Shown: piece after piece, positions 1,052 to 43,460 of the stretch | Position numbering within the stretch: the stretch's first letter is position 1 | How the letters are laid out: each line of letters begins with the position of its first letter | DNA from: Rhizodiscina lignyota | Taxonomy: Eukaryota | Direction: 5' to 3' | NCBI GenBank assembly: GCA_010015805.1 | Contig: ML978133.1 | Location: 434,001-498,000, forward strand | DNA: 64,000 nt | Translations under genes and position numbers: made by a program | The notes under the pieces: model-generated | The model's database searches: none | The model's input: only the letters and a program-made list of their open reading frames with translations | Told to the model about the DNA's origin: nothing

Positions 1052-4000
1052 ATGGCAACTAACTTCAACCCCTTCAGCGTCCTCGCTGAGTAAGTTTCTC
1101 TTATTTACTGAAAGCTATGAATATGGCTGACGTTTTATTCGCACAGGAATGAAGAAACGGGTAAGAACACGCATTCTCCGATTCCGCTGTCTCAATCCGA
1201 GTGCCACGCGACATTCTCGTAACAACTCAAAACCTGCAGACAGCGCATATGCCAGCGGCGGGACTCCAAGTGTTGGGATAAACGAAGATGCTTATGATCC
1301 TCTCCAATCAGATATGCAAAGCCACGATGGTGACGGCGATACTTTGGTCGTAGCCTCGCCGGATAGAAGCAGCCCAAAGAGGACAATGTCTAGCTTGGTA
1401 ACGCACAAACCGAAAGAGTCAAACCTGCAAATTAACCTTACAGCCTTGAAGACAACTCCAAGCCAAACCCCGCAGAAGTCTTTGCACAAGGCGCCTGCCT
1501 CATTTGCCTCATCGAAAGACGTAGCGAATGTGACCCCAGAGCAAATTACGAAGAAGACACCACCGTCGATCTCACAAACCCCAACTGTGAGACTGTCAGG
1601 AGTGACCAGCCCGAAGGATAAGGAACCCGGCCGACCATCTGCGGCGACCGACCAGCTTCCCATCACCACTCATCGCACAAATGTTATCCGAAATGCTTCA
1701 AAGCAGATGATGATTACTAAGGATGGTAGCCCGCAGAAAATTGTGAGCACTACTAGCGCTGCCTCGCAATCGAAGACGACTCCAAAAAAGACGGAGTCGA
1801 TTGCAGCGCCGAACCAAGCCAGTGCAACCACACATCCTAGCATAGTTCAAGAGAGAATCGTCCGTCCAGTACCCCCAACAGGTCCCAGGAATCCTCAATT
1901 TGCGCCACGAAGGCTCCCTGTCCAACGCTTTGCGAGCGACCGAAACCTGCCAGCTGTCATAGCATGGCGACAACGCCAGCCACCAGTCAAAGTCCATGAG
2001 CTGGCTCGAAATTTCGACCCATCTAACCAAAAGACTGATGCGATCAGAACTAGGAATGGGACTCACTTCCCTATGCTTGAGCATATCGCCTCGCTGACTA
2101 ACACCCACCTCGCAATCTGGCGCTCCTCCGGCAAATGCTTCGAAGTACACATTTGGGGAAGCCCGGAAGACGCTCGAAATGCGATTGTCGAGATTGATTG
2201 GTGGGTGAAGAACATATTCGGACGGACTGGTACACAGAAGTTCGTCAAGATACCACGATTGACGGAAGACGAATGGTACATGATTGAGAAGAAGATCCTC
2301 AATGAGGAGAAGCGACAACGTTTTCGGCGCATCCCAGCTGAAGGGGATAGATTCGCGTACAAGGCATGAAATAAGATGGTCCCAGAACCTAACTTGTTCT
2401 AACTTTGTAACAGTGTCATTTGATATGGCCGGAGAGGGATTGGGCAGTGACAGAGGTCTTGGGCTCGGGGCTTGAGGCGCTTGATGAGATCCGCATGGAT
2501 TGCTTCTCTTACATTCGCTTCCTCACCAGGTCACGCAACCCAGGCCAGGGCTGCGTGTTCGAGGTGTTGAGCAATAACAGGAACCGCATGCTCAATGCTC
2601 TTGAGAGACTCGGTGGCATAATCGACCAGCAGGATGCCAGGCAGTTGTCGCGACCCCGATGGTATCTTGTCAGGCCATGCGACGCGACTCAATTGCGTAA
2701 ACTTGTTAAACTTGAGAAGTACAAGGGACCGAAGCCAGGGCAACTTGGTCAACAGAACCCTTCTACATCTGTTGCCCATCAAGCTCCAGTCGCGATCTCA
2801 GCAGTCCCTCTGCTCCACGGACCTATACTTAGCCCAGATGAGCGCGAGGAGAGGGAGAAGCTCATCGAGAGGGTTAAACCCGGCACAGTAGTGATTGGTG
2901 GCGCGGGCGTCGAAAGTCTGAACATCGAGAGCATCGAAGCGGTGGCTATGACGACCTTGAAGATCCTTACTCACTATCGCGGACATCTCCAAATGAGAGC
3001 ATCGCTCGGGAAGTTCGGCCTTACAAATTTCCCCAAGGAAGACGACAAGCCAAAGCTTGAGTATGAACTTAACAGCTTCGAGGACTTGCTATATAGTGCC
3101 AACGGAGAAGAGAATCCAATGGCAGGCCATGTGACAAAAGAGTGAGTGTGACGGTAGACTCCATTTTGAGGAACTGGATGCTGATCTCATATACAGGCTT
3201 GGGGCTCCTGAATTGGAGCATACGCTGCTTGACCGCTTCAAGGCGGCGGCCCATTTGCTGCTGCCACATGACGCGCGTAGCCCGAGACTCTCAGACGTGC
3301 GGCCGATATACTGCGTTACATTCGTCATTGCAAATCTCAACCAAGACGGCCCTCACTATCAGCTTGAGCTCGAATTCCAAGACATCGACGAGAAGGCTGA
3401 GTTCCGCAGCAAGCGATGGTTGCGTCTCGACGTCAACGAAGAAGATCTGACATCGCTCATGGACATAAACATGATCAACCTCGAAGGCCCCTTGTCCTTC
3501 AACCTGAGCATTGCCGCTGCCAATGCCGTGGTCGAGTCGCGCCTTCCGGCGCACTACGAGAAGTTCGCCAGTGATGTTCAGGTCAACTTAGAAAAAGCAC
3601 GCGACTTCCAGAGCCCGACCGCAGAGGAGTGTTTCTTTAACTACCCGCTAAAGAAGGAAGATAAGAACCCGACTGTGCCAATAGTCCGGATGACGCAGAA
3701 GAGGGCCTGGAGATTTGTGTTGAGCGGCACCGACTACGTTACTGAGGTCGCCACCGTACAGAACGTCAAGTTCAACCCTGATCATGCGAGCATCAAGATC
3801 GTCAGTGGCAACATTACGAAGCCACCGGCCCCGAGGGTGCAGCCGTACGAGATGCGCTGGTCCCTGCAGATGTGGCATCAAGTCTGGGACATGTGGCTGC
3901 CGGGAAATAAAGAGCTGGAACTGGGCGAGGGTGCCATGTGGAGGGCCGAGGAGTCCTTCCTGTTCCCGCCTGACAGGAACATGCTGAGATCGCTAGCCAA

Positions 4001-4898: not shown

Positions 4899-5798
4899 TC
4901 AGGCAGCGCACTTGGTCTCCCAGTCGTAGAACTCGTCCTCCCGGTCCAGATGCGCCTCGACGCGCGTGACCACGTCCTTCAACACGGCGTCGGGCGTCCT
5001 CTCGACGTCCACCTCGATCACGTCCTCGGCCTTCTCCTTCCGGCTCGGCGACTGGAGGCTCTCGAACTGGCTCTTCACCATGTCCGACTTCATGTAGTGT
5101 CCCTTGCGCGCGGCGACGCGGTTGAGCGATTCCTGCTGCGAGATGGAGAGGTAGATGAAGTGCACGCTGATGTTCAGGCCCTGCGAGTGGATCGGGTGCG
5201 CGGCTACGCGGAACTCGTCGCGGTACTTGAGCTTCAGGGCGGAGCAGGTGACGACCACTGCCTTTGGGGGAGAGCCGGAATTGGCTGCTGGGGGAGGGAG
5301 CAGAGTCGTGTCGGCAGAGGAAGAAGGGTTGGTGGGTGGTGGCTGCGCGAGCATGTTGATGGCGTGGTCGCGGAGAGCAATCAGCCAGTCCCAGCGGTCG
5401 GCGTCGGTGAGAGGGATGCCGCTGTTCATCTTTTTGACGTTCTCAGGTGGGTGATGCTGTTGTTATGAAGTCAACACTCGCTTCTTTTTTCATGAAATGG
5501 CAAGACTTACATCGTCGCCCTCAACGTAGGGCACACCAAGGTGATTGGCGAGGGCCTGGCCGACAGTGGTCTTGCCACAGCCTGCTGGACCCGTGACGAC
5601 CCAGATGTGCTGGCGAGGCTTGCTGCCCTTTGCGGGAGAGAGACTGCGTGTCATCGTAGTGTAGTGGGATTGACCTTGGGGTTGAGGGTGAGATCGAATG
5701 GGAGTGACTGCGGACACGGACTGCCGCTGCGAGGGGCGGATTGTTGGCGAGACATAATGGGCTTGTGCCGGGGTCGGAGTATATGTAGCAACCGTCAT
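4899..5798 (-). CDS. Gluconokinase (thermoresistant gluconokinase / IdnK-GntK family)
   Basis: P-loop GPAGCGKTT, EGDD-HHPPENVKKMNSGIPLTDADRWDWL, TCSALKLKYRD and RKGHYMKSDMVKSQFESL; intron 5510-5457. Confidence 0.92.
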
Positions 5799-34427: not shown

Positions 34428-37400
34428 ATGGCCTGTAAGTTAAATCTGTTTTATTGCATATTCACGCGCGCGTCGTCTCGAAAATCGGCCATATCTGCCG
34501 TCGATTACCGCCCTCGAAAGTCATCAACACCTCATCATATATTGCCGTCAAACTTGACGTACAGTGCCTCTGGGCGTTGAAATTGATGTGCTTTCGCTTG
34601 TTGACATTCACACGACACTGGTGGACTCGTCAAATTCCCCCAGCTCGGCTTGGGAGTTCCCACCGACACTTAAACACCTTCATCACCAGATCTTCAATAC
34701 CATCAAGAACAATAGCGGACCTTCTCTCTTGTCCATTTTAGGGCAATTCCTCTTCATTTTCGCGTCTTCGGGGTCGCCTGTGTCTGGTGTTTACAACGCA
34801 CTTGTGTTTCACGCGTCGCGACGTGTTGTCATTGAGATCGAAAGCTAACTGTCGCTCAACCAGCCGGGTCAATCCTCATGCCCTCATCCTCCGACTCCAA
34901 CCCCACCATGCCCCCCCAAAACGGCCATCTGTCTCCTTCTGAGCAGAATGGGTCGACTCCTAACGACGCCGCATCGTCAAGCGGTAGCGAACTCTCCGAA
35001 GTGCGAGATAACATCGATCTCGCCGTCCCTCCATCAAAGGCGGAGGGCGTGATTGAAGATGCGATGCAAGACATTCAAGTTGATATGTCTGATTATGTTG
35101 ATGAAGATGCGGAAGGTTCCGCGGATGGAGACTACGACCTTGAGACACCTCCTGGCGACCGTGCCAGCCTTGCGCCGGATCACTCGTCCTCCACCGACTC
35201 CACGCAGTCGAAGAAGCGAAAGGCTAGCATCGAAGCCAATGAGCTGATTCAGAAGAATCCGGAACTCTATGGATTAAGGCGAAGCGGCCGTGCAAGACAG
35301 AATCGTCAAGTGATCGACAGTTCCGATGAAGAGGATGGTGCCTCGCGTGACCATAACCCACGCTCTCGAAAGAAGCGACGCACTGGTCCGAAGGCATCGA
35401 ATCAGCCTACTTCAGCATCTCTTACCTCCGAGTCCGATGCCGCGTCTGATGTGTACGTTGGCGGCCGTCGCAACGCTCTCACGAGGAAGCAGCGCCTACA
35501 TCAGCTCCAGGTCGCCAATGGCCTTGCTCCACCATCCAAGGGTGAAGTTCGCTTCTCCTCGCGCACTGCCAACAAGATCACAAACTACAATGTAGACGAC
35601 GATGATGAGGATATGGAAGACGAGCTTGTTATCACACCCAACTACACCTGGGAAGACAATACTCCGGCCATTGACGTCGTTCTGGACCATCAGCTCAAGG
35701 AGGGCAAAGCACTGAATGATGCCGACCTCACCAAGCACGATTTCGAGTACAAGATCAAGTGGCAAGGCAAGGCGTACTACCACGCTACGATAGAGACCTT
35801 TGAGTCTATTGCGGAGAAGCAAGCTCGGGGCCTCAAGCGTCTCGACAATTATTTCGTCAAGCATGTCGAAACCCACATTCTCATGTCCACCAGCGAAGAC
35901 GTTCCCATGGAAGACAAGGAGCAGTATTTCATGGATCGTGAGAAACGATTGGATGCGAATGATGAGCATAACGAAATTGAGCGTATCATCGATATGCATA
36001 AGGGAGACGACGAGACTGAATACTTGGTCAAGTGGAAGGGCGTTGAGTACCAATACTGCACTTGGGAGCCTTCTTCCTTGATCGTCAATGAGAAGCTCAA
36101 TGCTCAGGACGAAATCGACCGATACCTTGACCGATCATCGAAGCTGCCTGTTTCCGACAAGTCCCAGTCGAACAAGAAGACGCGTCGGCCATATGTTCCT
36201 TTCAAGGAACAGCCAGACTATATCAAACATGGCCAGCTCCGTGAGTTTCAGATTAAGGGTGTCAATTTCCTTGCACATCAATGGTGCCATGGAGATAACG
36301 TTATCCTGGCTGACGAGATGGGTCTCGGAAAGACGGTACAATCTGTGGCATTTGTCAACTGGCTTCGACACGACCGCGGCCAGCACGGTCCTTTCCTCGT
36401 TGTGGTCCCACTGAGTACCATACCTGCGTGGGCCGACACTCTCAAGAACTGGACTCCGGATGTTAACTATGTGGTCTACCTTGGTCGAGCGCCGTCTCGT
36501 GAGATCATCCGTGACAAGGAAATCACTGCGGGCGGATTCTCGAAGAAAGTCAAGTGCAACGTCCTCATTACCTCGTACGAGTTTGTCCTCAGCGACGTCT
36601 CATTTCTGACGGCCCTCCCATGGCAATTCTTGGTGGTTGACGAAGCTCATCGTCTGAAGAACCCTGACTCTCAATTGTACAATAAGCTCATGGATTTCAA
36701 CATTCCTAACCGTCTCTTGATCACCGGAACCCCCCTGCAGAACAATCTGGCCGAGTTAGCTGCATTGATGAACTTTCTCTCCCCCGGCAAGTTCAAAATC
36801 GACGACAATATTGACCTGCAATCCGAGACGGCGAGCGAGAAGATCCGAGAGCTCACAGAAGCTATCCGCCCTTACATGTTACGTCGTACCAAGCAGAAGG
36901 TCGAGAAGGATTTACCACCAAAGACCGAGAGAATCATTCGTGTCGAATTGTCCGATGTCCAACTCGAATACTACAAGAACATTCTGACCCGCAATTATGC
37001 GGCCTTGAACCAAGGCGCTAAGGGACCGAAGCAATCATTGCTCAATGTCATGATGGAGCTGAAAAAGGCTAGCAACCATCCCTTCATGTTCCCAAATGCC
37101 GAGGACCGTATTCTTGGCGACAATCCGCGAAGGGAAGATACCTTGAAAGGCCTGATTACTAGCAGTGGCAAATTGATGCTGCTTGACCGCTTCCTGGTCA
37201 AGTTGAAGGCAGAAGGCCACCGAGTTCTGATATTCAGCCAAATGGTGAAGATGCTTGACATCCTCCAGGATTATTGTCGCCTTCGCGGTTACCAGTATCA
37301 GCGCATAGACGGCACGATTCCAGCTAGTACCCGACGAATCGCTATTGACCACTTCAATGCTCCCGACAGTGAAGACTTTTGCTTCCTGCTATCTACTCGT

Positions 37401-39689
37401 GCTGGTGGCCTTGGAATCAATCTAATGACAGCCGACACCGTAATTCTCTTCGACTCGGATTGGAATCCACAAGCGGACCTCCAAGCCATGGCTCGAGCTC
37501 ACCGAATCGGCCAGACAAAGCCTGTCACTGTCTATCGCCTTGTGTCGAAGGACACGGTCGAGGAAGAGATTCTAGAACGTGCTAGGAACAAGCTTATGCT
37601 TGAGTTTATCACAATCCAGCGTGGCGTCACTGATCAAGATGCGGATTCAAAGCTTTTTGCAGACAAAGACTTCTCCCAGAGAGTTGCACGTGCTAACAAG
37701 AAGTTGAGCGAGCCCTCTTCATCGGACGATATCTCCCGAATCCTTAAGAAGCGCGGTCAAAAGATGTTCGAGCAGACAGGCAATCAGAAGAAGCTGGAAG
37801 AACTTGATATCGATGCTGTCTTGGCCAATGCCGAGGAGCACAAGACTGAGCAACCCGAAGGCATCACCACGGATGGCGGAGAGGAATTCTTACGAAGCTT
37901 CGAATACACCGATGTCAAGCTTGACGTTGAATGGGACGACATTATCCCCAAGGACCAGCTCGAAGCGATCAAGGCCGAAGAGAAAAAGAAGGAAGAGGAG
38001 CGTTACCTGGCGGAAGTCATCGAGCAGAACCAGCCGCGCAAGAGGAAATCAGCTGCCATTGAAGAACGCGAACAGCGAGCGGCTAAGAAGCGTGCACGCG
38101 TGGCTGCTGCAGCAGACCTTGCAGAAGACGGCTCAGACGATGATTCCAGCCCAGATGAAGACCCGAAGCGCCCTCTGAACGAGAAGGAGTTGCGAAACTT
38201 GATTCGTGCCTACGAACGCTTTGGATCATTTGAAGAGAAGGCCGATGAGATAATCAACGATGCCAAGTTGTCGAGCCGCGACCGCGATCTTCTCAAGTCG
38301 ACCCTCGATGAGGTCATCAGCCACAGTCAGAAGCTCTTGAAAGTGGAGCAAGACAGGGTTGAGAAGTTAGAGAAAGAGACGAACAAGGCTCTCACAAAGA
38401 AGGACAGGAAAGCTGTTCTCTTCGACTTCAAAAACGTCAAGCGCATTAACGCTGAGACCATCATGGAGCGTCCGGCCGAGATGCGCATGCTTCGAAAGGT
38501 TATCGAAACCGCACCGGATTGGAAGAACTTCCGTATACCAGAAGCAGCAAAACCCACCCAGTATACCGCACCTTGGGGCGCACGTGAGGACGGCATGCTC
38601 TGCGTAGGTATCGCCCGTTACGGCTTTGGTGCATGGACACAGATCCGTGATGACCCTGAGCTTGGCTTGGGAGACAAGTTCTATCTCGAAGAGCATCGTG
38701 TGGAGAAGAAAGAGGAGCGCAAGACCGCGGATGATAAGAAGAACATCAAGTCACCTGGAGCTGTGCACCTTGTGCGTCGAGCGAACTATCTTCTTAGCGT
38801 ACTCAAGGACAAGACCAGCAACGGCACGAATATTACCGCCAGGCGCGCACTCGAGAATCATCATCGCAACAACAAGAAGTGGTCTAAGCACGGCATCCGT
38901 GGCGACGCGTCGTCGAGCATCTCCGCTAGCCCTGCGCCATCTGCGTTCTCGTCGAAGACCAAAGTTCGTGGTGAGTTAGAGCAGGCTCGACGCGCCATTA
39001 CCAACGCCACCGACCACCGTCAGCGCGAAGGCCGTCCAAGTGATCATCGTTCGGAGCACCGTTCCAGTGAATATCGTCACAGCTCAGAGCGTCGCGCACC
39101 CAGATCAGATCGTAGGGGCACGCCTGACATTCGTCGACAGCATAGCGGCGACAAGGATGGCAAGCTTCATCGGAGCAAGTCAGACAATCGTACACACGGT
39201 TATCATCGTCACGATAGCAATGGTTCCATCAAGAGAGTCGCATCGAATGGCTCCATCAAGAAGCCTACATCGAATATTGAGGACCATGTGCCAAAGATCT
39301 GCGCTCCAATCGAGAAGCATCTCAAGCGACTTTTGGCAGCTGCATCTGGCACCTTGAAGGAGGCAGATGAGAAGGGCAATCAAGCTCAGATCATCAAGAC
39401 CGAGCTCGTTATTGTAGGCGACTTCATTGAGGGCAAGTGCAAGGAGGGGGGCGCGAATCTGCAGAATCGATTCTGGTAAGTCATCACACTCGCATCCGAT
39501 TAGGTTGGACTAAACTAACACTGGCACAGGGGTTTCGTCGTTGATCACTATTGGCCCAAGAAGAATGTCTTACCCGACACACTTCGCTCAATGTACTTGA
39601 AGATCGTTGCTGCAAAGAAGCAGGAGGGCCATCCGGGCCAGAAGGCGCAAGACAAGGGTAGGCCGCAGGTTGCGGCGGCGCGTGCATAG
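34428..39689 (+). CDS. CHD1: Chromodomain helicase CHD1/Hrp3 chromatin remodeller
   Basis: Double chromodomain, ILADEMGLGKT, DEAH, LLSTRAGGLGINL, QAMARAHRIGQ and a SANT/SLIDE region; last intron 39476-39529. Probable 7-nt first exon at 34428-34434, otherwise the start is 34878. Confidence 0.96.
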
Positions 39690-40110
39690 ATGCCGATGCA
39701 TCTTGCACATCAAAACTTTCTTCGAACGACCAGGGTGGGCTGCAGTTGGCAGCGGCGAGTGCATGGATGCCGATGCGTCTTGTTGCACGTCAATACTTTC
39801 TTCTTTCTTTCTTTGTTTCTTTGAACAGCACAATTGCATACTAGGAACTGGGGACTGGCACCACATTAGGTGCTTCTGATTCTGCTAATGCATAGCCGGG
39901 GCGTGTCTTTACCTTGTTTAAAAGTTTGGGAGGAACTCTCTTTTGGGCCACGATGTTTTCCGGCTCAGGGTTTTCGGCATCGAAGTCGCACGAGCGTATT
40001 GTCAAGATACGCTTCGTCACATTGCGGGCATCTGCTTTTTCTGGATTTCTGCATGCATGTTCTGCTTTACTGCTTTCTTGCATATTCTGCATGTTCTGCT
40101 TTTTTGCATG

Positions 40111-40393
40111 TTCTGCCTCTTCTGCCTCTTCTGCCTCTTCTGCCTCTTCTGCCTCTTCTGCTTCTTCTGCCTCTTCTGCTTTTTCTGCTTTTTCTGCTTT
40201 TTCTGCCTCTACTGCTTTTCTGCTTCTTTTGCCTCTTCTGCCTCTTCTGCCTCTTGTGCTTCTTGTGCCTCTTCTGCTTTTTCTGCCTTTTCTGCCTTTT
40301 CTGCTTTCTCTGCCTTTTCTGCCTTTGCTGTCTTTTCTGCTTCTTCTGCTTCTTCTGCTTCTTCTGCTTCTTCTGCTTCTTCTGCTTCTTCTG
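40111..40393. repeat. 9-bp tandem repeat (TTCTGCYTY), about 31 copies
   Basis: Units ttctgcctc, ttctgcttc and ttctgcttt read directly from the sequence. Confidence 0.95.
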
Positions 40394-40779
40394 TTTTTTT
40401 GTGTTTGCTGCGTTCTGCGTTTGCTACGTCTTCCGCGTTTCAACATCTAGACTGTATTGAGAGTATAGCATGGGAAAGGGATTGTACCTCTGGCGTCTGC
40501 TATTTGTAACCTGTTGTTTGCTAACCGAAGCGGCCTACATACTGGCTGAGGCGGACTGTAATCACTGCTTGTTAGTTGAAGCAGCCTTCGGGTTGAGGCG
40601 ACTAGCAAGTAATGGTTACAGGCCGAGGCAGCTAGTATGTAGGCTGAAGCGGCTGGCACGTAATAGGTTGCAAATAGTAGATACTGAAGATGCATTTCCC
40701 TTTCCTATACTATGCTATCATGCAGTCTGGGTGTCGTGACTCGGAAACGTGGTAAACGTAGACGCAGTAAACGCCGAAA

Positions 40780-41017
40780 GGCAGAAGGGCAGGAGGGCAG
40801 GAAAGCAGAAGGGCGGAAAGGCAGGAAAGCAGAAAAGCAGAAGGGCGGAAGGGTAGAAGGGCAGAAGGGTAGAAGGGTAGAAGGGCAGAAGGGTAGAAGG
40901 GCAGAAGGGCAGAAGGGTGGAAGGGTGGAAGGGTAGAAGGGTAGAAGGGCGGAAGGGCGGAAGGGCAGAAAGGCAGAAAGGCAAAGGACAGAAGGGCAGA
41001 AGGGCAGAAAGGCAGGA
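40780..41017. repeat. 8-bp tandem repeat (GGYRGAAG), about 30 copies, complementary to the 9-bp array
   Basis: Units ggcagaag, ggtagaag and ggcggaag; the reverse complement CTTCTGCC equals the left unit minus one T. Confidence 0.93.
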
Positions 41018-42058
41018 AAACAATGGGCTACAAATAGCCTCCATAGACATTCAATTGACGAAGTATACTTATCCGTTCTTTGAACCTGCTGCGTGCAATG
41101 CTTTCTACGATGAGCGGACAACTCCCCCAATCAGAGCGATTTTGCTTATGTGAGCCCTTACTCTTAAACGTACAGTGATAGTGCACCCTGGTCGGCTGGC
41201 CCACGGGATGTTTGACACCCACCATCCGACCGAGATCATGCGCCTTCGATTCGCACATTTGTGCAACCGAGGCGACTTGCCCGAGTTAGAACACATATGG
41301 CCGCTGTGGCTGCTCCCTTTCTGGCTGATGCGGCCGACGGGGCCAAGGCCAGGCCCGCAAATGGAATGAATCACAAGAAGCAGACTCAGCTCATAAGGCG
41401 CTCTGCCGAGTATCGACATTTCGGCATCTTGCGGTTCTTCTCTCACTGCTCTCCTGTTTCCGCCGCTTCTAATTCTGTATAAGAAGCTTGTTTCCGCCTA
41501 AGATTGAGCTCCTTGGCATCTCGACATTGCACAGTTCTCCTCGTTGGTGCAGTTAGAGGCCTGCTTCACCTCTCATAAAGCCAAATTAAAGTGAACAAGC
41601 TGGTTGCTGATAGGTATGCTATTTCAACACATTCTCCTGAGGGATTTATAGAATCCGTTCATCCGAGTCTCTGTTATGCGCGTACTTCAACGACGAACAA
41701 AGAAATGTCTTGCCGCCTTATATTTCAAGCGCCTCAATCTCACCTCCCTTAATTCATCTTCGAATTGAAGTCTGCAAGGACGCGCTATTAGAGTAGATAT
41801 GGCAGACATGTTTTCACAAGGCCTTCATTTTCCAGCTTGAGGGACCATAGACGTTGCAAATTAAGGCCCTCCGTGTTATGATACCTTCAGTCGAGGCAGT
41901 CTGCAAGGCGCGAACATCATTCCTACTCAGATACCTGAGCCTCACAATAGCACTTCTTTCTGCTACAAACTTTCGTCTTTCATCTATTGAATATCGGCGA
42001 TAGAGCGAAGCCCTCTAACGTTACTCAGGATTCAAGAACTTCTTTCAAACAGGACGTA

Positions 42059-43460
42059 ATGGCTTCTTCACTCCTAGACAGCTCTCTGCAATACCTTGAA
42101 CCCGTCATCGAAACGGCGAAGCAACACGTCGGCCTGACGATCGGCGCCTCCGCAGCGCTCTACATTATCGCCTGCAATGCCTTACGCTTCCAACGCGTTC
42201 GCTGGTGGGAGAAGCATCTCCCATACAAGACACGCGATGACTACTCTCGCATGACTGCGGAGCACGCACGTGAAATCACGCACTATATTGCAGTTGCTGA
42301 GTTCCCTTGGGTTTACCTTAAGGGAATGCAGTTTGCGCTCTTCCGCACGTACGGTATTCCGACCATTTCGAAGCTCCTTGTGGCGACGAAGCAGTTGTCC
42401 TCTCGTGCGCACGCGACAAAGCGTTATGCTGATACGGAGATGCTGCTCGGCGAGTTCACGACACAGAAGGCGGGCTCTGAGCGCTCGAATGCGGCACTGG
42501 CGAGGCTGAATTACATCCATGGAGTGTATCAGAAGAAAGGCCAGATTACCAATGATGATATGCTGTATACGTTGTCGATGTTTGCGCTCGAGCCGAAGAG
42601 GTGGATTGCGCGGTACGAGTGGAGAGAGGTGACTCCGTTAGAGCTCTGCGCCTTGTACGTTATTTACGTCCATTGTCTCTATTGCACACACTGACAAGGA
42701 ATTGTGCAGCGGAACAGAATGGAAAGAGATCGGCGACGCTATGAACATCTCGTACGAGCCTTTGCCTTCGTACGAGAAAGGCTGGAAGGACGGGCTTCAC
42801 TGGGTCGAGGAACTTGACGAGTGGGCTTCTGCGTACGAAGAGAGGTGTATGGTTCCAAACAAGTGGAATCATCAAACCGCGGAGGAGACGACGGCAATGC
42901 TTCTTTACACGGTTCCGGAGTGGGTCAAGCCAATTGGAAGGAACCTTGTGAGCACCTTGATGGACGATAGACTCAGGAAAGCAATGATGTATGTTGTGCT
43001 TTGAAATAATCTAGTACTTTTGTCGAACGAAGCTGATATACAAAGGTATCCTGCACCTCCGCCATCGTACCCAATGTTTGTCAACACAATCTTCCGCATC
43101 CGCAAATTCATCCACAGATACCTCAGCCTTCCGCGCCCGTGGTTCCTCCGCCTTGACTTCGAGTTTCCGCAGGACAAGAAGACAGGCCGACTCCAGCGCA
43201 AGAACTACGAGCATGATCCCTGGTATGTCAAGCCGAGTCTGAAGAACCGATGGGGCAAGCAGGCCTGGATGAATTGGATGAATGGAATGCCAGCCCCAGG
43301 AGATGGTGGCGATAAGTTCTGGCCTCAAGGCGTACACTACAGCGAAATCGGTCCCGCCAGTATGCTGGGGAAGGGTGCAGAAGAAGTTGAGGCGACCAAG
43401 GCGAAACTCATGAGCATGAAGTTGGGAGGCTGCCCGTTTGCGATGGGCAAGGCGACATGA
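42059..43460 (+). CDS. MpaB/DUF2236-like ER-bound oxygenase family protein
   Basis: N-terminal hydrophobic segment, FALFRTYGIPTISKLL, KRYADT, ARLNYIH and ITNDDMLYTLSMFA, C-terminal GCPF; introns 42655-42709 and 42989-43045. Confidence 0.85.

What the first reader, a model, noticed from the sequence alone, without database searches (positions are those of the whole stretch)
40111..41017. Mutually complementary 9-mer and 8-mer arrays form a periodically bulged duplex
Seen: a left array of about 31 x CTTCTGCCT and a right array of about 30 x GGCAGAAG lie symmetrically around the core stem. The left unit is the reverse complement of the right unit plus one T, so folding gives about 30 helices of 8 bp, each followed by a bulged U. 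Common variants (left C>T; right GGTAGAAG, GGCGGAAG, GGTGGAAG) remain pairable as G.U on the + strand. Different periods with nearly equal copy numbers suggest co-evolving arrays rather than a simple duplication. Inference: an extensible dsRNA scaffold with repeated identical binding sites, or a source of multicopy siRNAs.
Basis: partly seen in the sequence, partly recalled or inferred. Interest (0 to 1): 0.72.

Follow-up and report, generated by a model that had tools for sequence, protein, structure and literature searches.

The report
Modular 900-base fungal hairpin locus
Behind a fungal chromatin-remodeller gene lies a single-copy stretch that would fold into a 400-base-pair RNA rod built by matched duplications on both arms, which looks like a working hairpin RNA, but nobody has yet shown that it is transcribed.

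Summary
At 40110-41019 a single-copy rod of about 400 bp folds on the + strand behind a fungal CHD1 gene. It has 32 degenerate 9-mers facing 30 degenerate 8-mers around a 190-bp core with a cUUCGg apex. Only 12 of 34 array helices are exactly 8 bp, and unit order shows no locked co-variation. New here: the core holds three 3x3 purine loops of one pattern (G-ARG-C on both strands), and it grew by a 51-nt direct duplication on each arm with facing junctions. The arrays repeat that growth at 9/8 nt. G.U outnumbers A.C 29:7, but 17 of the 29 sit in TpA/TpG context, so one-strand RIP is a serious rival for that signal; comparison of the duplicated copies leans against RIP as the sole cause. I found no relative, no convincing target and no Rfam family; expression was not testable. 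Odds: selected + strand RNA about 0.6 (Dicer substrate 0.38, scaffold or 3'UTR element 0.25), neutral relic about 0.3. The scan noted a similar array-arm design before in a bacterial repeat (e1-2132377; homology not tested).

The parts
34881..39689 (+). CHD1/Hrp3 chromatin remodeller gene (upstream neighbour; stop TAG at 39687-39689, about 420 nt before the rod)
   Evidence: Pfam chromo, SNF2, helicase, CHD1 HTH and C-terminal domains; last exon matches the C-terminus of P0001; stop codon
40033..40109 (+). Degenerate TGC-cored units continuing the left array; no partner on the right arm in the MFE
   Evidence: unit parsing, fold
40110..40396 (+). Left array: 32 degenerate 9-mers, consensus CTTCTGCCT; carries the bulged base
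40397..40503 (+). Outer core, left arm; its first 35 nt are decayed array-like units with left-side bulges
40504..40554 (+). 51-nt module, left copy (flank + unit hairpin H1); direct duplicate of 40555-40601
   Evidence: alignment score 51 vs shuffle mean 22, 0 of 2000 shuffles
40528..40530 (+). 3x3 loop 1, AAG facing AAG at 40647-40649, closed by G-C and C-G
40549..40551 (+). 3x3 loop 2, AGG facing AGG at 40626-40628
40555..40622 (+). Apical module: flank, unit hairpin H2 with 3x3 loop 3 (AAG 40579-40581 facing AGG 40596-40598), flank
40586..40591 (+). cUUCGg apex at the exact centre of symmetry (closing pair probability 0.99)
   Evidence: its extra stability in RNA is recalled knowledge
40623..40673 (+). 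51-nt module, right copy (unit hairpin H3 + flank); direct duplicate of 40576-40622; its 8-nt loop is the reverse complement of H1's loop
   Evidence: score 49 vs shuffle mean 24, 0 of 2000 shuffles; sequence
40674..40779 (+). Outer core, right arm
40780..41019 (+). Right array: 30 degenerate 8-mers (one of 7 nt), consensus GGCAGAAG
42059..43460 (+). Downstream neighbour gene, in three open frames; MpaB/Lcp-like oxygenase as a lead only
   Evidence: ORFs; no Pfam hit; Atlas score 0.86, PF09995 on 23-37% of cluster members

Best explanation
A lineage-restricted long hairpin RNA locus, read on the + strand by Pol II (own promoter or read-through from CHD1). It folds into a rod of about 400 bp, and selection keeps it paired. 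It grew outward by direct duplications on each arm that match in length: first a 51-nt module (three copies of one unit hairpin, with one loop turned round so that H1 and H3 pair with each other), then 9-nt and 8-nt units by slippage. Because each arm copies its own sequence, the built-in mismatch (3x3 purine loop, one-base bulge) is repeated. Most likely it works like a hairpin-RNA (hpRNA) gene: Dicer cuts the 12-22 bp core helices and the bulged arrays into small RNAs loaded on Argonaute. Shown: anatomy, duplication history, strand asymmetry, presence of Dicer and Piwi-domain genes. Inferred: transcription, selection, dicing, any target.
For: Strand asymmetry: G.U 29 vs A.C 7 in the core (p = 3e-4, same in 6 of 6 alignment settings), 23 vs 7 after dropping the array-like outer 35 nt; three other inverted repeats of this genome are balanced (1:1, 5.5:4.5, 6:5). 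cUUCGg at the exact centre on the same strand. Three 3x3 all-purine loops of one pattern: 0 of 20000 simulated decays of a plain inverted repeat gave two. Matched 51-nt duplications with facing junctions, 40554/40555 opposite 40622/40623. Between the duplicated helices, over 25 aligned positions (40511-40535; 40510 dropped as it lies at an indel): 9 same pair, 8 one-side changes that still pair, 2 two-side changes that still pair, 3 paired in one copy only, 3 loop. Of 9 G.U pairs whose duplicate is Watson-Crick, 4 face A-U (A>G the simplest reading) and the 5 that face G-C are not in CpA context, which RIP does not predict. A>G in 10 of 90 right-array sites vs T>C in 1 of 128 left-array sites (units are not independent). 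Genome has a Dicer dimerisation domain and Piwi matches at 4 loci. Runs of T5-T7 in and just before the left array (7 places) argue against Pol III (inference).
Against: 17 of 29 G.U pairs are TpA facing TpG, against 14 of 65 surviving C in CpA (Fisher p = 7e-4): the footprint of CpA>TpA on one strand. Outside that context the bias is 12:5 (p = 0.14). The duplicate-polarised bias is 9:2 (p = 0.065). The three loops can be inherited from one loop by duplication, so the simulation rejects only a plain inverted repeat. No register-specific co-variation. No hairpin behind CHD1 in 55 of 55 loci long enough to test (80 fetched), though none is a close relative (81% protein identity at best). No target for the 20-mer tested from the best helix (1 other 3-mismatch site vs 5 in the control). 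Top-tier fungal milRNA hairpins are short (PMC9757828 section 11). No TATA motif by pattern in 39650-42100.
Confidence: 0.38

Rival explanations
1. Neutral relic. A small DNA hairpin was enlarged by slippage and template switching, one or a few rounds of RIP hit the + strand and turned C-G into T.G, and the two outer units expanded as microsatellites. No RNA function.
For: CpA-context signature on one strand, 17 vs 2; core TpA/ApT 31/19 vs 0.61 in the window; right-array CpA>TpA 8 of 30 vs left TpG>TpA 0 of 32. About 91.9% of RIP clusters are all C>T or all G>A in Neurospora (PMC7296669, passage); 240 of 242 RIP changes are in CpA in Zymoseptoria (PMC10294615, passage); inverted repeats are RIP substrates (bioRxiv 2021.04.05.438447, passages). 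Three C5-methyltransferase loci in this genome, one RID-like by recalled motif. Template switching can create and repair stems (PMC8794818, abstract and Discussion). No relatives found.
Against: Needs several structure-extending accidents in a row: matched duplications on both arms, loop inversion, a UUCG apex, and two arrays of 32 and 30 units where 400 kb of background has none. The per-CpA RIP rate measured in Zymoseptoria is 0.54%, so 17 of 31 sites would need many rounds, which should hit both strands. Polarised G.U pairs are not CpA>TpA. A>G variants are not RIP products.
Confidence: 0.32
2. Structured lncRNA that acts as a scaffold or decoy: the three identical purine loops and about 30 bulged modules are repeated protein-binding sites, and the bulges keep it from being diced.
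For: G, A, G and C of the G-ARG-C motif are invariant in 6 of 6 strands while the flanking stems differ between copies; motif occurs 6 times in 130 nt vs at most 2 in background; no siRNA target found.
Against: No binding protein known; motif chosen after the fact; loops are only in the most stable 13% of 1000 possible 3x3 loops; outer register is fluid and units are degenerate; no second locus with the motif in a hairpin.
Confidence: 0.15
3. Cis element of a long CHD1 3'UTR (or read-through isoform) that controls the mRNA's stability, export or dicing.
For: Folding strand is the CHD1 sense strand and the rod starts about 420 nt after the stop; no AATAAA found by pattern in between.
Against: Absent behind CHD1 in 55 of 55 other fungal loci tested; T-rich tract at about 39800-39830 could mark an earlier 3' end (inference).
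Confidence: 0.1
4. Relic of a foldback-type transposon or MITE (tandem-repeat outer domain, unique inner domain).
For: Gross layout resembles foldback TIRs (PMC4079207, passages).
Against: Single copy; no flanking direct repeat of 9-10 bp, and the one 8-mer is array-like and 80 nt off the end; the two outer domains have different periods.
Confidence: 0.03
5. Assembly artefact inflating the left array.
For: No contig of X1 spans 40188-40402.
Against: Core and right array lie in one 24.7 kb contig with 0 differences; two 39-nt repeat contigs have depth 270 and 989 vs about 150, as a real multi-copy unit gives; left units are varied, not clonal.
Confidence: 0.02

Closest known systems
Drosophila hairpin RNAs (hpRNAs; hp-CG4068, Nmy/Tmy; PMC12697358, passages)
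   Same: Long imperfect inverted repeat, lineage-restricted, intergenic; many have no overt target
   Different: Defined by 21-22 nt reads from the arms, not testable here; tandem hpRNAs repeat whole hairpins, whereas here units repeat within each arm and the arms differ in period
Fungal milRNA/hairpin small-RNA loci (Johnson et al. 2022, PMC9757828; abstract, sections 10-11, passages)
   Same: Intergenic or near-gene foldback in a fungus with Dicer and Argonaute; no Rfam match; conservation usually only among close species
   Different: Top-tier fungal hairpins are short; this is about 400 bp with repeat arrays
Foldback transposons (FB, Tetris; PMC4079207, passages)
   Same: Inverted arms with a tandem-repeat outer domain and a unique inner domain
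   Different: Single copy, no target-site duplication, no middle domain, arms of unequal period
Template-switch hairpins (Monttinen and Loytynoja 2022, PMC8794818; abstract and Discussion)
   Same: Could explain the first hairpin and the turned H1/H3 loop
   Different: Makes perfect complements; cannot copy ARG-facing-ARG loops or a 9-vs-8 period from one arm to the other
RIP-mutated inverted repeats (PMC7296669; bioRxiv 2021.04.05.438447; passages)
   Same: One-strand CpA>TpA would give G.U bias on that strand
   Different: Does not make A>G changes, loops, duplications or a UUCG apex

Membership tests
hpRNA / milRNA locus | Long foldback on one strand without side branches | tested here: met
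   Unbranched core, z -22.7; about 400 bp in all
hpRNA / milRNA locus | Transcribed as a single-stranded precursor | not testable with these tools
   No expression data could be examined
hpRNA / milRNA locus | 20-24 nt reads from the arms, over 80% from the hairpin strand, Dicer-dependent | not testable with these tools
   Criteria from PMC9757828 and PMC12697358; no small-RNA data
hpRNA / milRNA locus | Host has Dicer and Argonaute | tested here: met
   Dicer_dimer 1 match; Piwi 7 matches at 4 loci
hpRNA / milRNA locus | Complementary target elsewhere | tested here: inconclusive
   Left core arm: only itself at E<=10; one 20-mer: chance level; left-array 21-mer: 2 other loci, one sense match in an 829-aa frame
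hpRNA / milRNA locus | Not a structural RNA of Rfam | tested here: met
   0 matches at gathering score; one 21-bit mir-1827 match vs cut-off 82, E 0.19
hpRNA / milRNA locus | Conserved in related genomes (top tier only) | tested here: inconclusive
   0 of 55 distant CHD1 loci; no close relative available
Foldback transposon / MITE | Dispersed copies | tested here: not met
Foldback transposon / MITE | Target-site duplication | tested here: not met
   No 9-10 bp direct repeat at the ends
Foldback transposon / MITE | Same terminal repeat at both ends | tested here: not met
   Periods 9 and 8
RIP-mutated repeat | C>T changes enriched at CpA | tested here: inconclusive
   Context enrichment present, but 0 of 5 polarised C>T G.U pairs are at CpA
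RIP-mutated repeat | [quoted passage not shown] | tested here: not met
   Core 31/19 = 1.6 and 51/52 = 1.0
Telomerase RNA, ribozyme-bearing rod, Pol III gene | Telomere template, hammerhead/hairpin ribozyme, B box | tested here: not met
   Pattern scan with recalled motifs found no template or B box and one isolated CTGANGA; no Rfam match

The most novel reading that the evidence does not exclude
A new kind of fungal RNA rod that lengthens by matched duplications on both arms and uses repeated mismatch modules (three G-ARG-C purine loops, about 30 one-base bulges) as protein-binding sites. Its 9-versus-8 period and G.U pairs keep the RNA paired while breaking DNA-level identity between the arms, so a long double-stranded RNA gene could persist in a genome with RIP.
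Probability: 0.15. Interest if true: 0.8.

Novelty: new variant of a known kind. Interest (0 to 1): 0.52.

Why it matters
If transcribed, it would be a natural long hairpin RNA in a fungus, where catalogued hairpin loci are mostly short, and its sequence records step by step how such a rod grows. It would show how a long dsRNA gene can be kept next to RIP. There is also a method point: in RIP-competent fungi a G.U excess on one strand of an inverted repeat can come from mutation alone, so it should be checked for CpA context before being read as RNA selection.

Tried and rejected
Expression: no RNA holder listed (2 runs, one at share 0.92, one at 0.05); no evidence either way. X2 covers only three short pieces and was not used. 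Metagenome scan for the paired 16-mers: 0 hits. CHD1 synteny: 80 loci fetched, 25 dropped as too short, 55 scanned, best hairpin score 22.6 vs 393.8 here; blastn hits of the hairpin in the part of the output shown were to simple repeats only; neither downstream neighbour was syntenic. Viral contigs: 32 matches to a spaced-motif pattern, none in a comparable hairpin (best score 37.6), and 0 to the apex pattern. Own-genome motif searches gave only chance-level extra hits: 5, 4 and 1; those are not in hairpins, the one was not folded. Register-locked co-evolution rejected. A fourth, older copy of the 51-nt module was not supported (5 alignments, p 0.13-0.95). Coding role rejected: frames over the arrays are low-complexity stop-to-stop frames. 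DNA cruciform judged unlikely, as the strands fold unequally even with DNA parameters (-96 vs -71). The sigma-70 scan does not apply to a fungus. Ten literature searches listed no paper on such a fungal element; I saw listings only for most, did not search by species name and read no supplements.

Full report
Setting. The window is fungal. The flagged stretch lies between a CHD1/Hrp3 gene (stop at 39687-39689) and a + strand gene starting near 42059 (oxygenase-like as a lead only). A 156-residue part of CHD1 is 100% identical to a protein that NCBI labels Rhizodiscina lignyota; the next hits are at most 81% identical. The core and the right array occur once in the 33.4 Mb genome; a four-unit run like the left array occurs at one other place. 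Rfam has no match at gathering score.

Observation. Two arrays are present: 32 units of 9 nt at 40110-40396 and 30 units of 8 nt at 40780-41019. The left consensus is the reverse complement of the right plus one T. The region folds into one rod on the + strand (-602 vs -415 kcal/mol), about 400 bp in all. It is the strongest hairpin in 746 tiles covering 464 kb of the genome, 333 against 64.6 for the best other locus. Only 7 of 32 and 6 of 30 units are exact. In the MFE 12 of 34 array helices have 8 bp, and 20 of 29 single left bulges are U. The outer register is loose. Contigs of run X1 reproduce the flanks, the core and the right array with no difference but do not span the left array, and X1 may be the source sample.

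Co-evolution of the arrays. The arrays cannot be an inverted copy of each other, since their periods differ and 31 of 32 asymmetric loops are left-heavy. Changes inside units favour G.U over A.C: 22 vs 3 by units, 14 vs 2 by runs after dropping the one 7-nt unit. But order does not matter: 289 of 300 shuffled unit orders and 21 of 29 rotations pair as well or better. So there is general compatibility, not unit-by-unit matching. At unit junctions the right array has 11 G>A changes, which pair only where the left offers a T.

The core has three 3x3 internal loops of one pattern, G-AAG-C or G-AGG-C on both strands, at 40528-30/40647-49, 40549-51/40626-28 and 40579-81/40596-98, and a cUUCGg loop at the centre. 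A plain inverted repeat decaying with the observed numbers of changes gave two all-purine 3x3 loops in 0 of 20000 runs. The reason is a duplication history. The left arm holds a 51-nt direct repeat (40504-40554 vs 40555-40601) and so does the right arm (40576-40622 vs 40623-40673); each beats 2000 of 2000 shuffles, and lag 51 beats 200 of 200 all-lag controls. The layout is flank-H1-flank-H2-flank-H3-flank, with three copies of one unit hairpin. The two duplication junctions face each other in the rod, and the loop of H3 is the reverse complement of the loop of H1, so H1 and H3 pair with each other. The rod is 20 kcal/mol more stable than the three-hairpin form. Each arm copied its own sequence, which is why loops and bulges are repeated; the arrays look like the same process at 9 and 8 nt (inference). 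Between the duplicated helices, 19 of the 22 non-loop positions pair in both copies, 2 of them through changes on both sides (position 40510 dropped because of an indel).

Is the G.U excess evidence for an RNA? The core has 136 Watson-Crick pairs, 29 G.U, 7 A.C and 16 other mismatches. Strand-symmetric decay never gave the 82 kcal/mol gap between strands (0 of 60), and three control inverted repeats are balanced. But 17 of the 29 G.U pairs are TpA facing TpG, against 14 of 65 surviving C in CpA. RIP acts on one strand per round (91.9% of clusters; PMC7296669, passage), prefers CpA in a Dothideomycete (240 of 242; PMC10294615, passage) and attacks inverted repeats (bioRxiv 2021.04.05.438447, passages; bioRxiv 115501, passages, counts strands separately). 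This genome has three C5-methyltransferase loci, one RID-like by a recalled motif. One-strand RIP would therefore mimic RNA selection. Outside that context the bias is 12:5 and not significant. Three things lean against RIP as the whole cause. Of 9 G.U pairs that the duplicate copy can polarise, 4 face A-U and the 5 facing G-C are not at CpA (two of the four could also be double RIP hits). A>G variants occur in 10 of 90 right-array sites against 1 T>C in 128 left sites (units are not independent). And the measured rate per CpA in Zymoseptoria, 0.54%, would need many rounds to reach 17 of 31 sites. The standard RIP index thresholds are not met.

Relatives and targets. No homologue turned up in metagenomes or viral contigs, and no hairpin lies behind CHD1 in 55 of 55 usable loci out of 80; none is a close relative, so this is a weak test. 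A 21-mer antisense to the left array has 18 exact matches: 11 in the locus, 6 in one array at C18:480673-480738 whose overlapping frames are short and low in complexity, and 1 in the sense strand of a frame of at least 829 codons at C18:357926 (no Pfam family). That is a lead only. One core 20-mer had chance-level matches.

How it most likely works. I put about 0.6 on a selected + strand RNA, because the apex loop, the matched duplications, the turned loop, the matched array lengths and the strand bias all push towards one long rod. Within that, a Dicer substrate of the hpRNA type is the default fate in a fungus with Dicer and Argonaute and gets 0.38; a protein scaffold 0.15; a CHD1 3'UTR element 0.10. 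A neutral relic shaped by slippage, template switching (PMC8794818) and RIP gets 0.32. Transcription, dicing and binding are all inferred.

Comparison. It works like Drosophila hpRNAs or fungal milRNA loci if expressed, but the defining small-RNA tests could not be run, so it is not filed as a member. It fails three tests for a foldback transposon. Ten literature searches listed no such fungal element, within the limits given under Tried and rejected. Earlier notes of this scan report other lone hairpins in this genome and an array-armed foldback repeat in bacteria; I did not test them.

Verdict. Real, unusual and well ordered; function unproven. New variant of a known kind; interest 0.52.

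Noticed in passing
window 39651-39803: A 77-nt tandem duplication (1.9 copies, 81%) that overlaps the CHD1 stop codon and repeats it in the 3' region.
   Followed up: no
window 41026-41039: A small hairpin just outside the rod; 41018-41038 is also 86% complementary to core 40499-40519.
   Followed up: no
window 40525-40652: The core motif GARGCRG is the reverse complement of CYGCYTC, found 17 times in the left array, so array and core modules may share an origin or pair in an alternative fold.
   Followed up: partly
L125 about 5692-5765 (G000:C13 near 543.7 kb): Near-perfect 73-nt palindrome, strand-symmetric (34 WC, 1 G.U, 1 A.C); used as a control.
   Followed up: partly
L146 about 3824-3988 (G000:C7 near 303.9 kb): 165-nt inverted repeat with well-matched outer 30 bp, MITE-like in look; balanced G.U/A.C.
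   Followed up: no
L026 1500-1570 (G000:C18:480672-480738): Seven to eight perfect 9-nt units, the reverse complement of the inner left-array unit, inside a purine-rich tract with no long frame.
   Followed up: partly
L217 1501-1521 (G000:C18:357926): Sense-strand 21-nt match to the left-array antisense in a Lys/Gln-rich patch of an unannotated protein of at least 829 residues.
   Followed up: partly
L152 (G000:C7:1111865-1112873): C5-methyltransferase of 766 residues with a non-canonical motif, RID-like by recall.
   Followed up: partly
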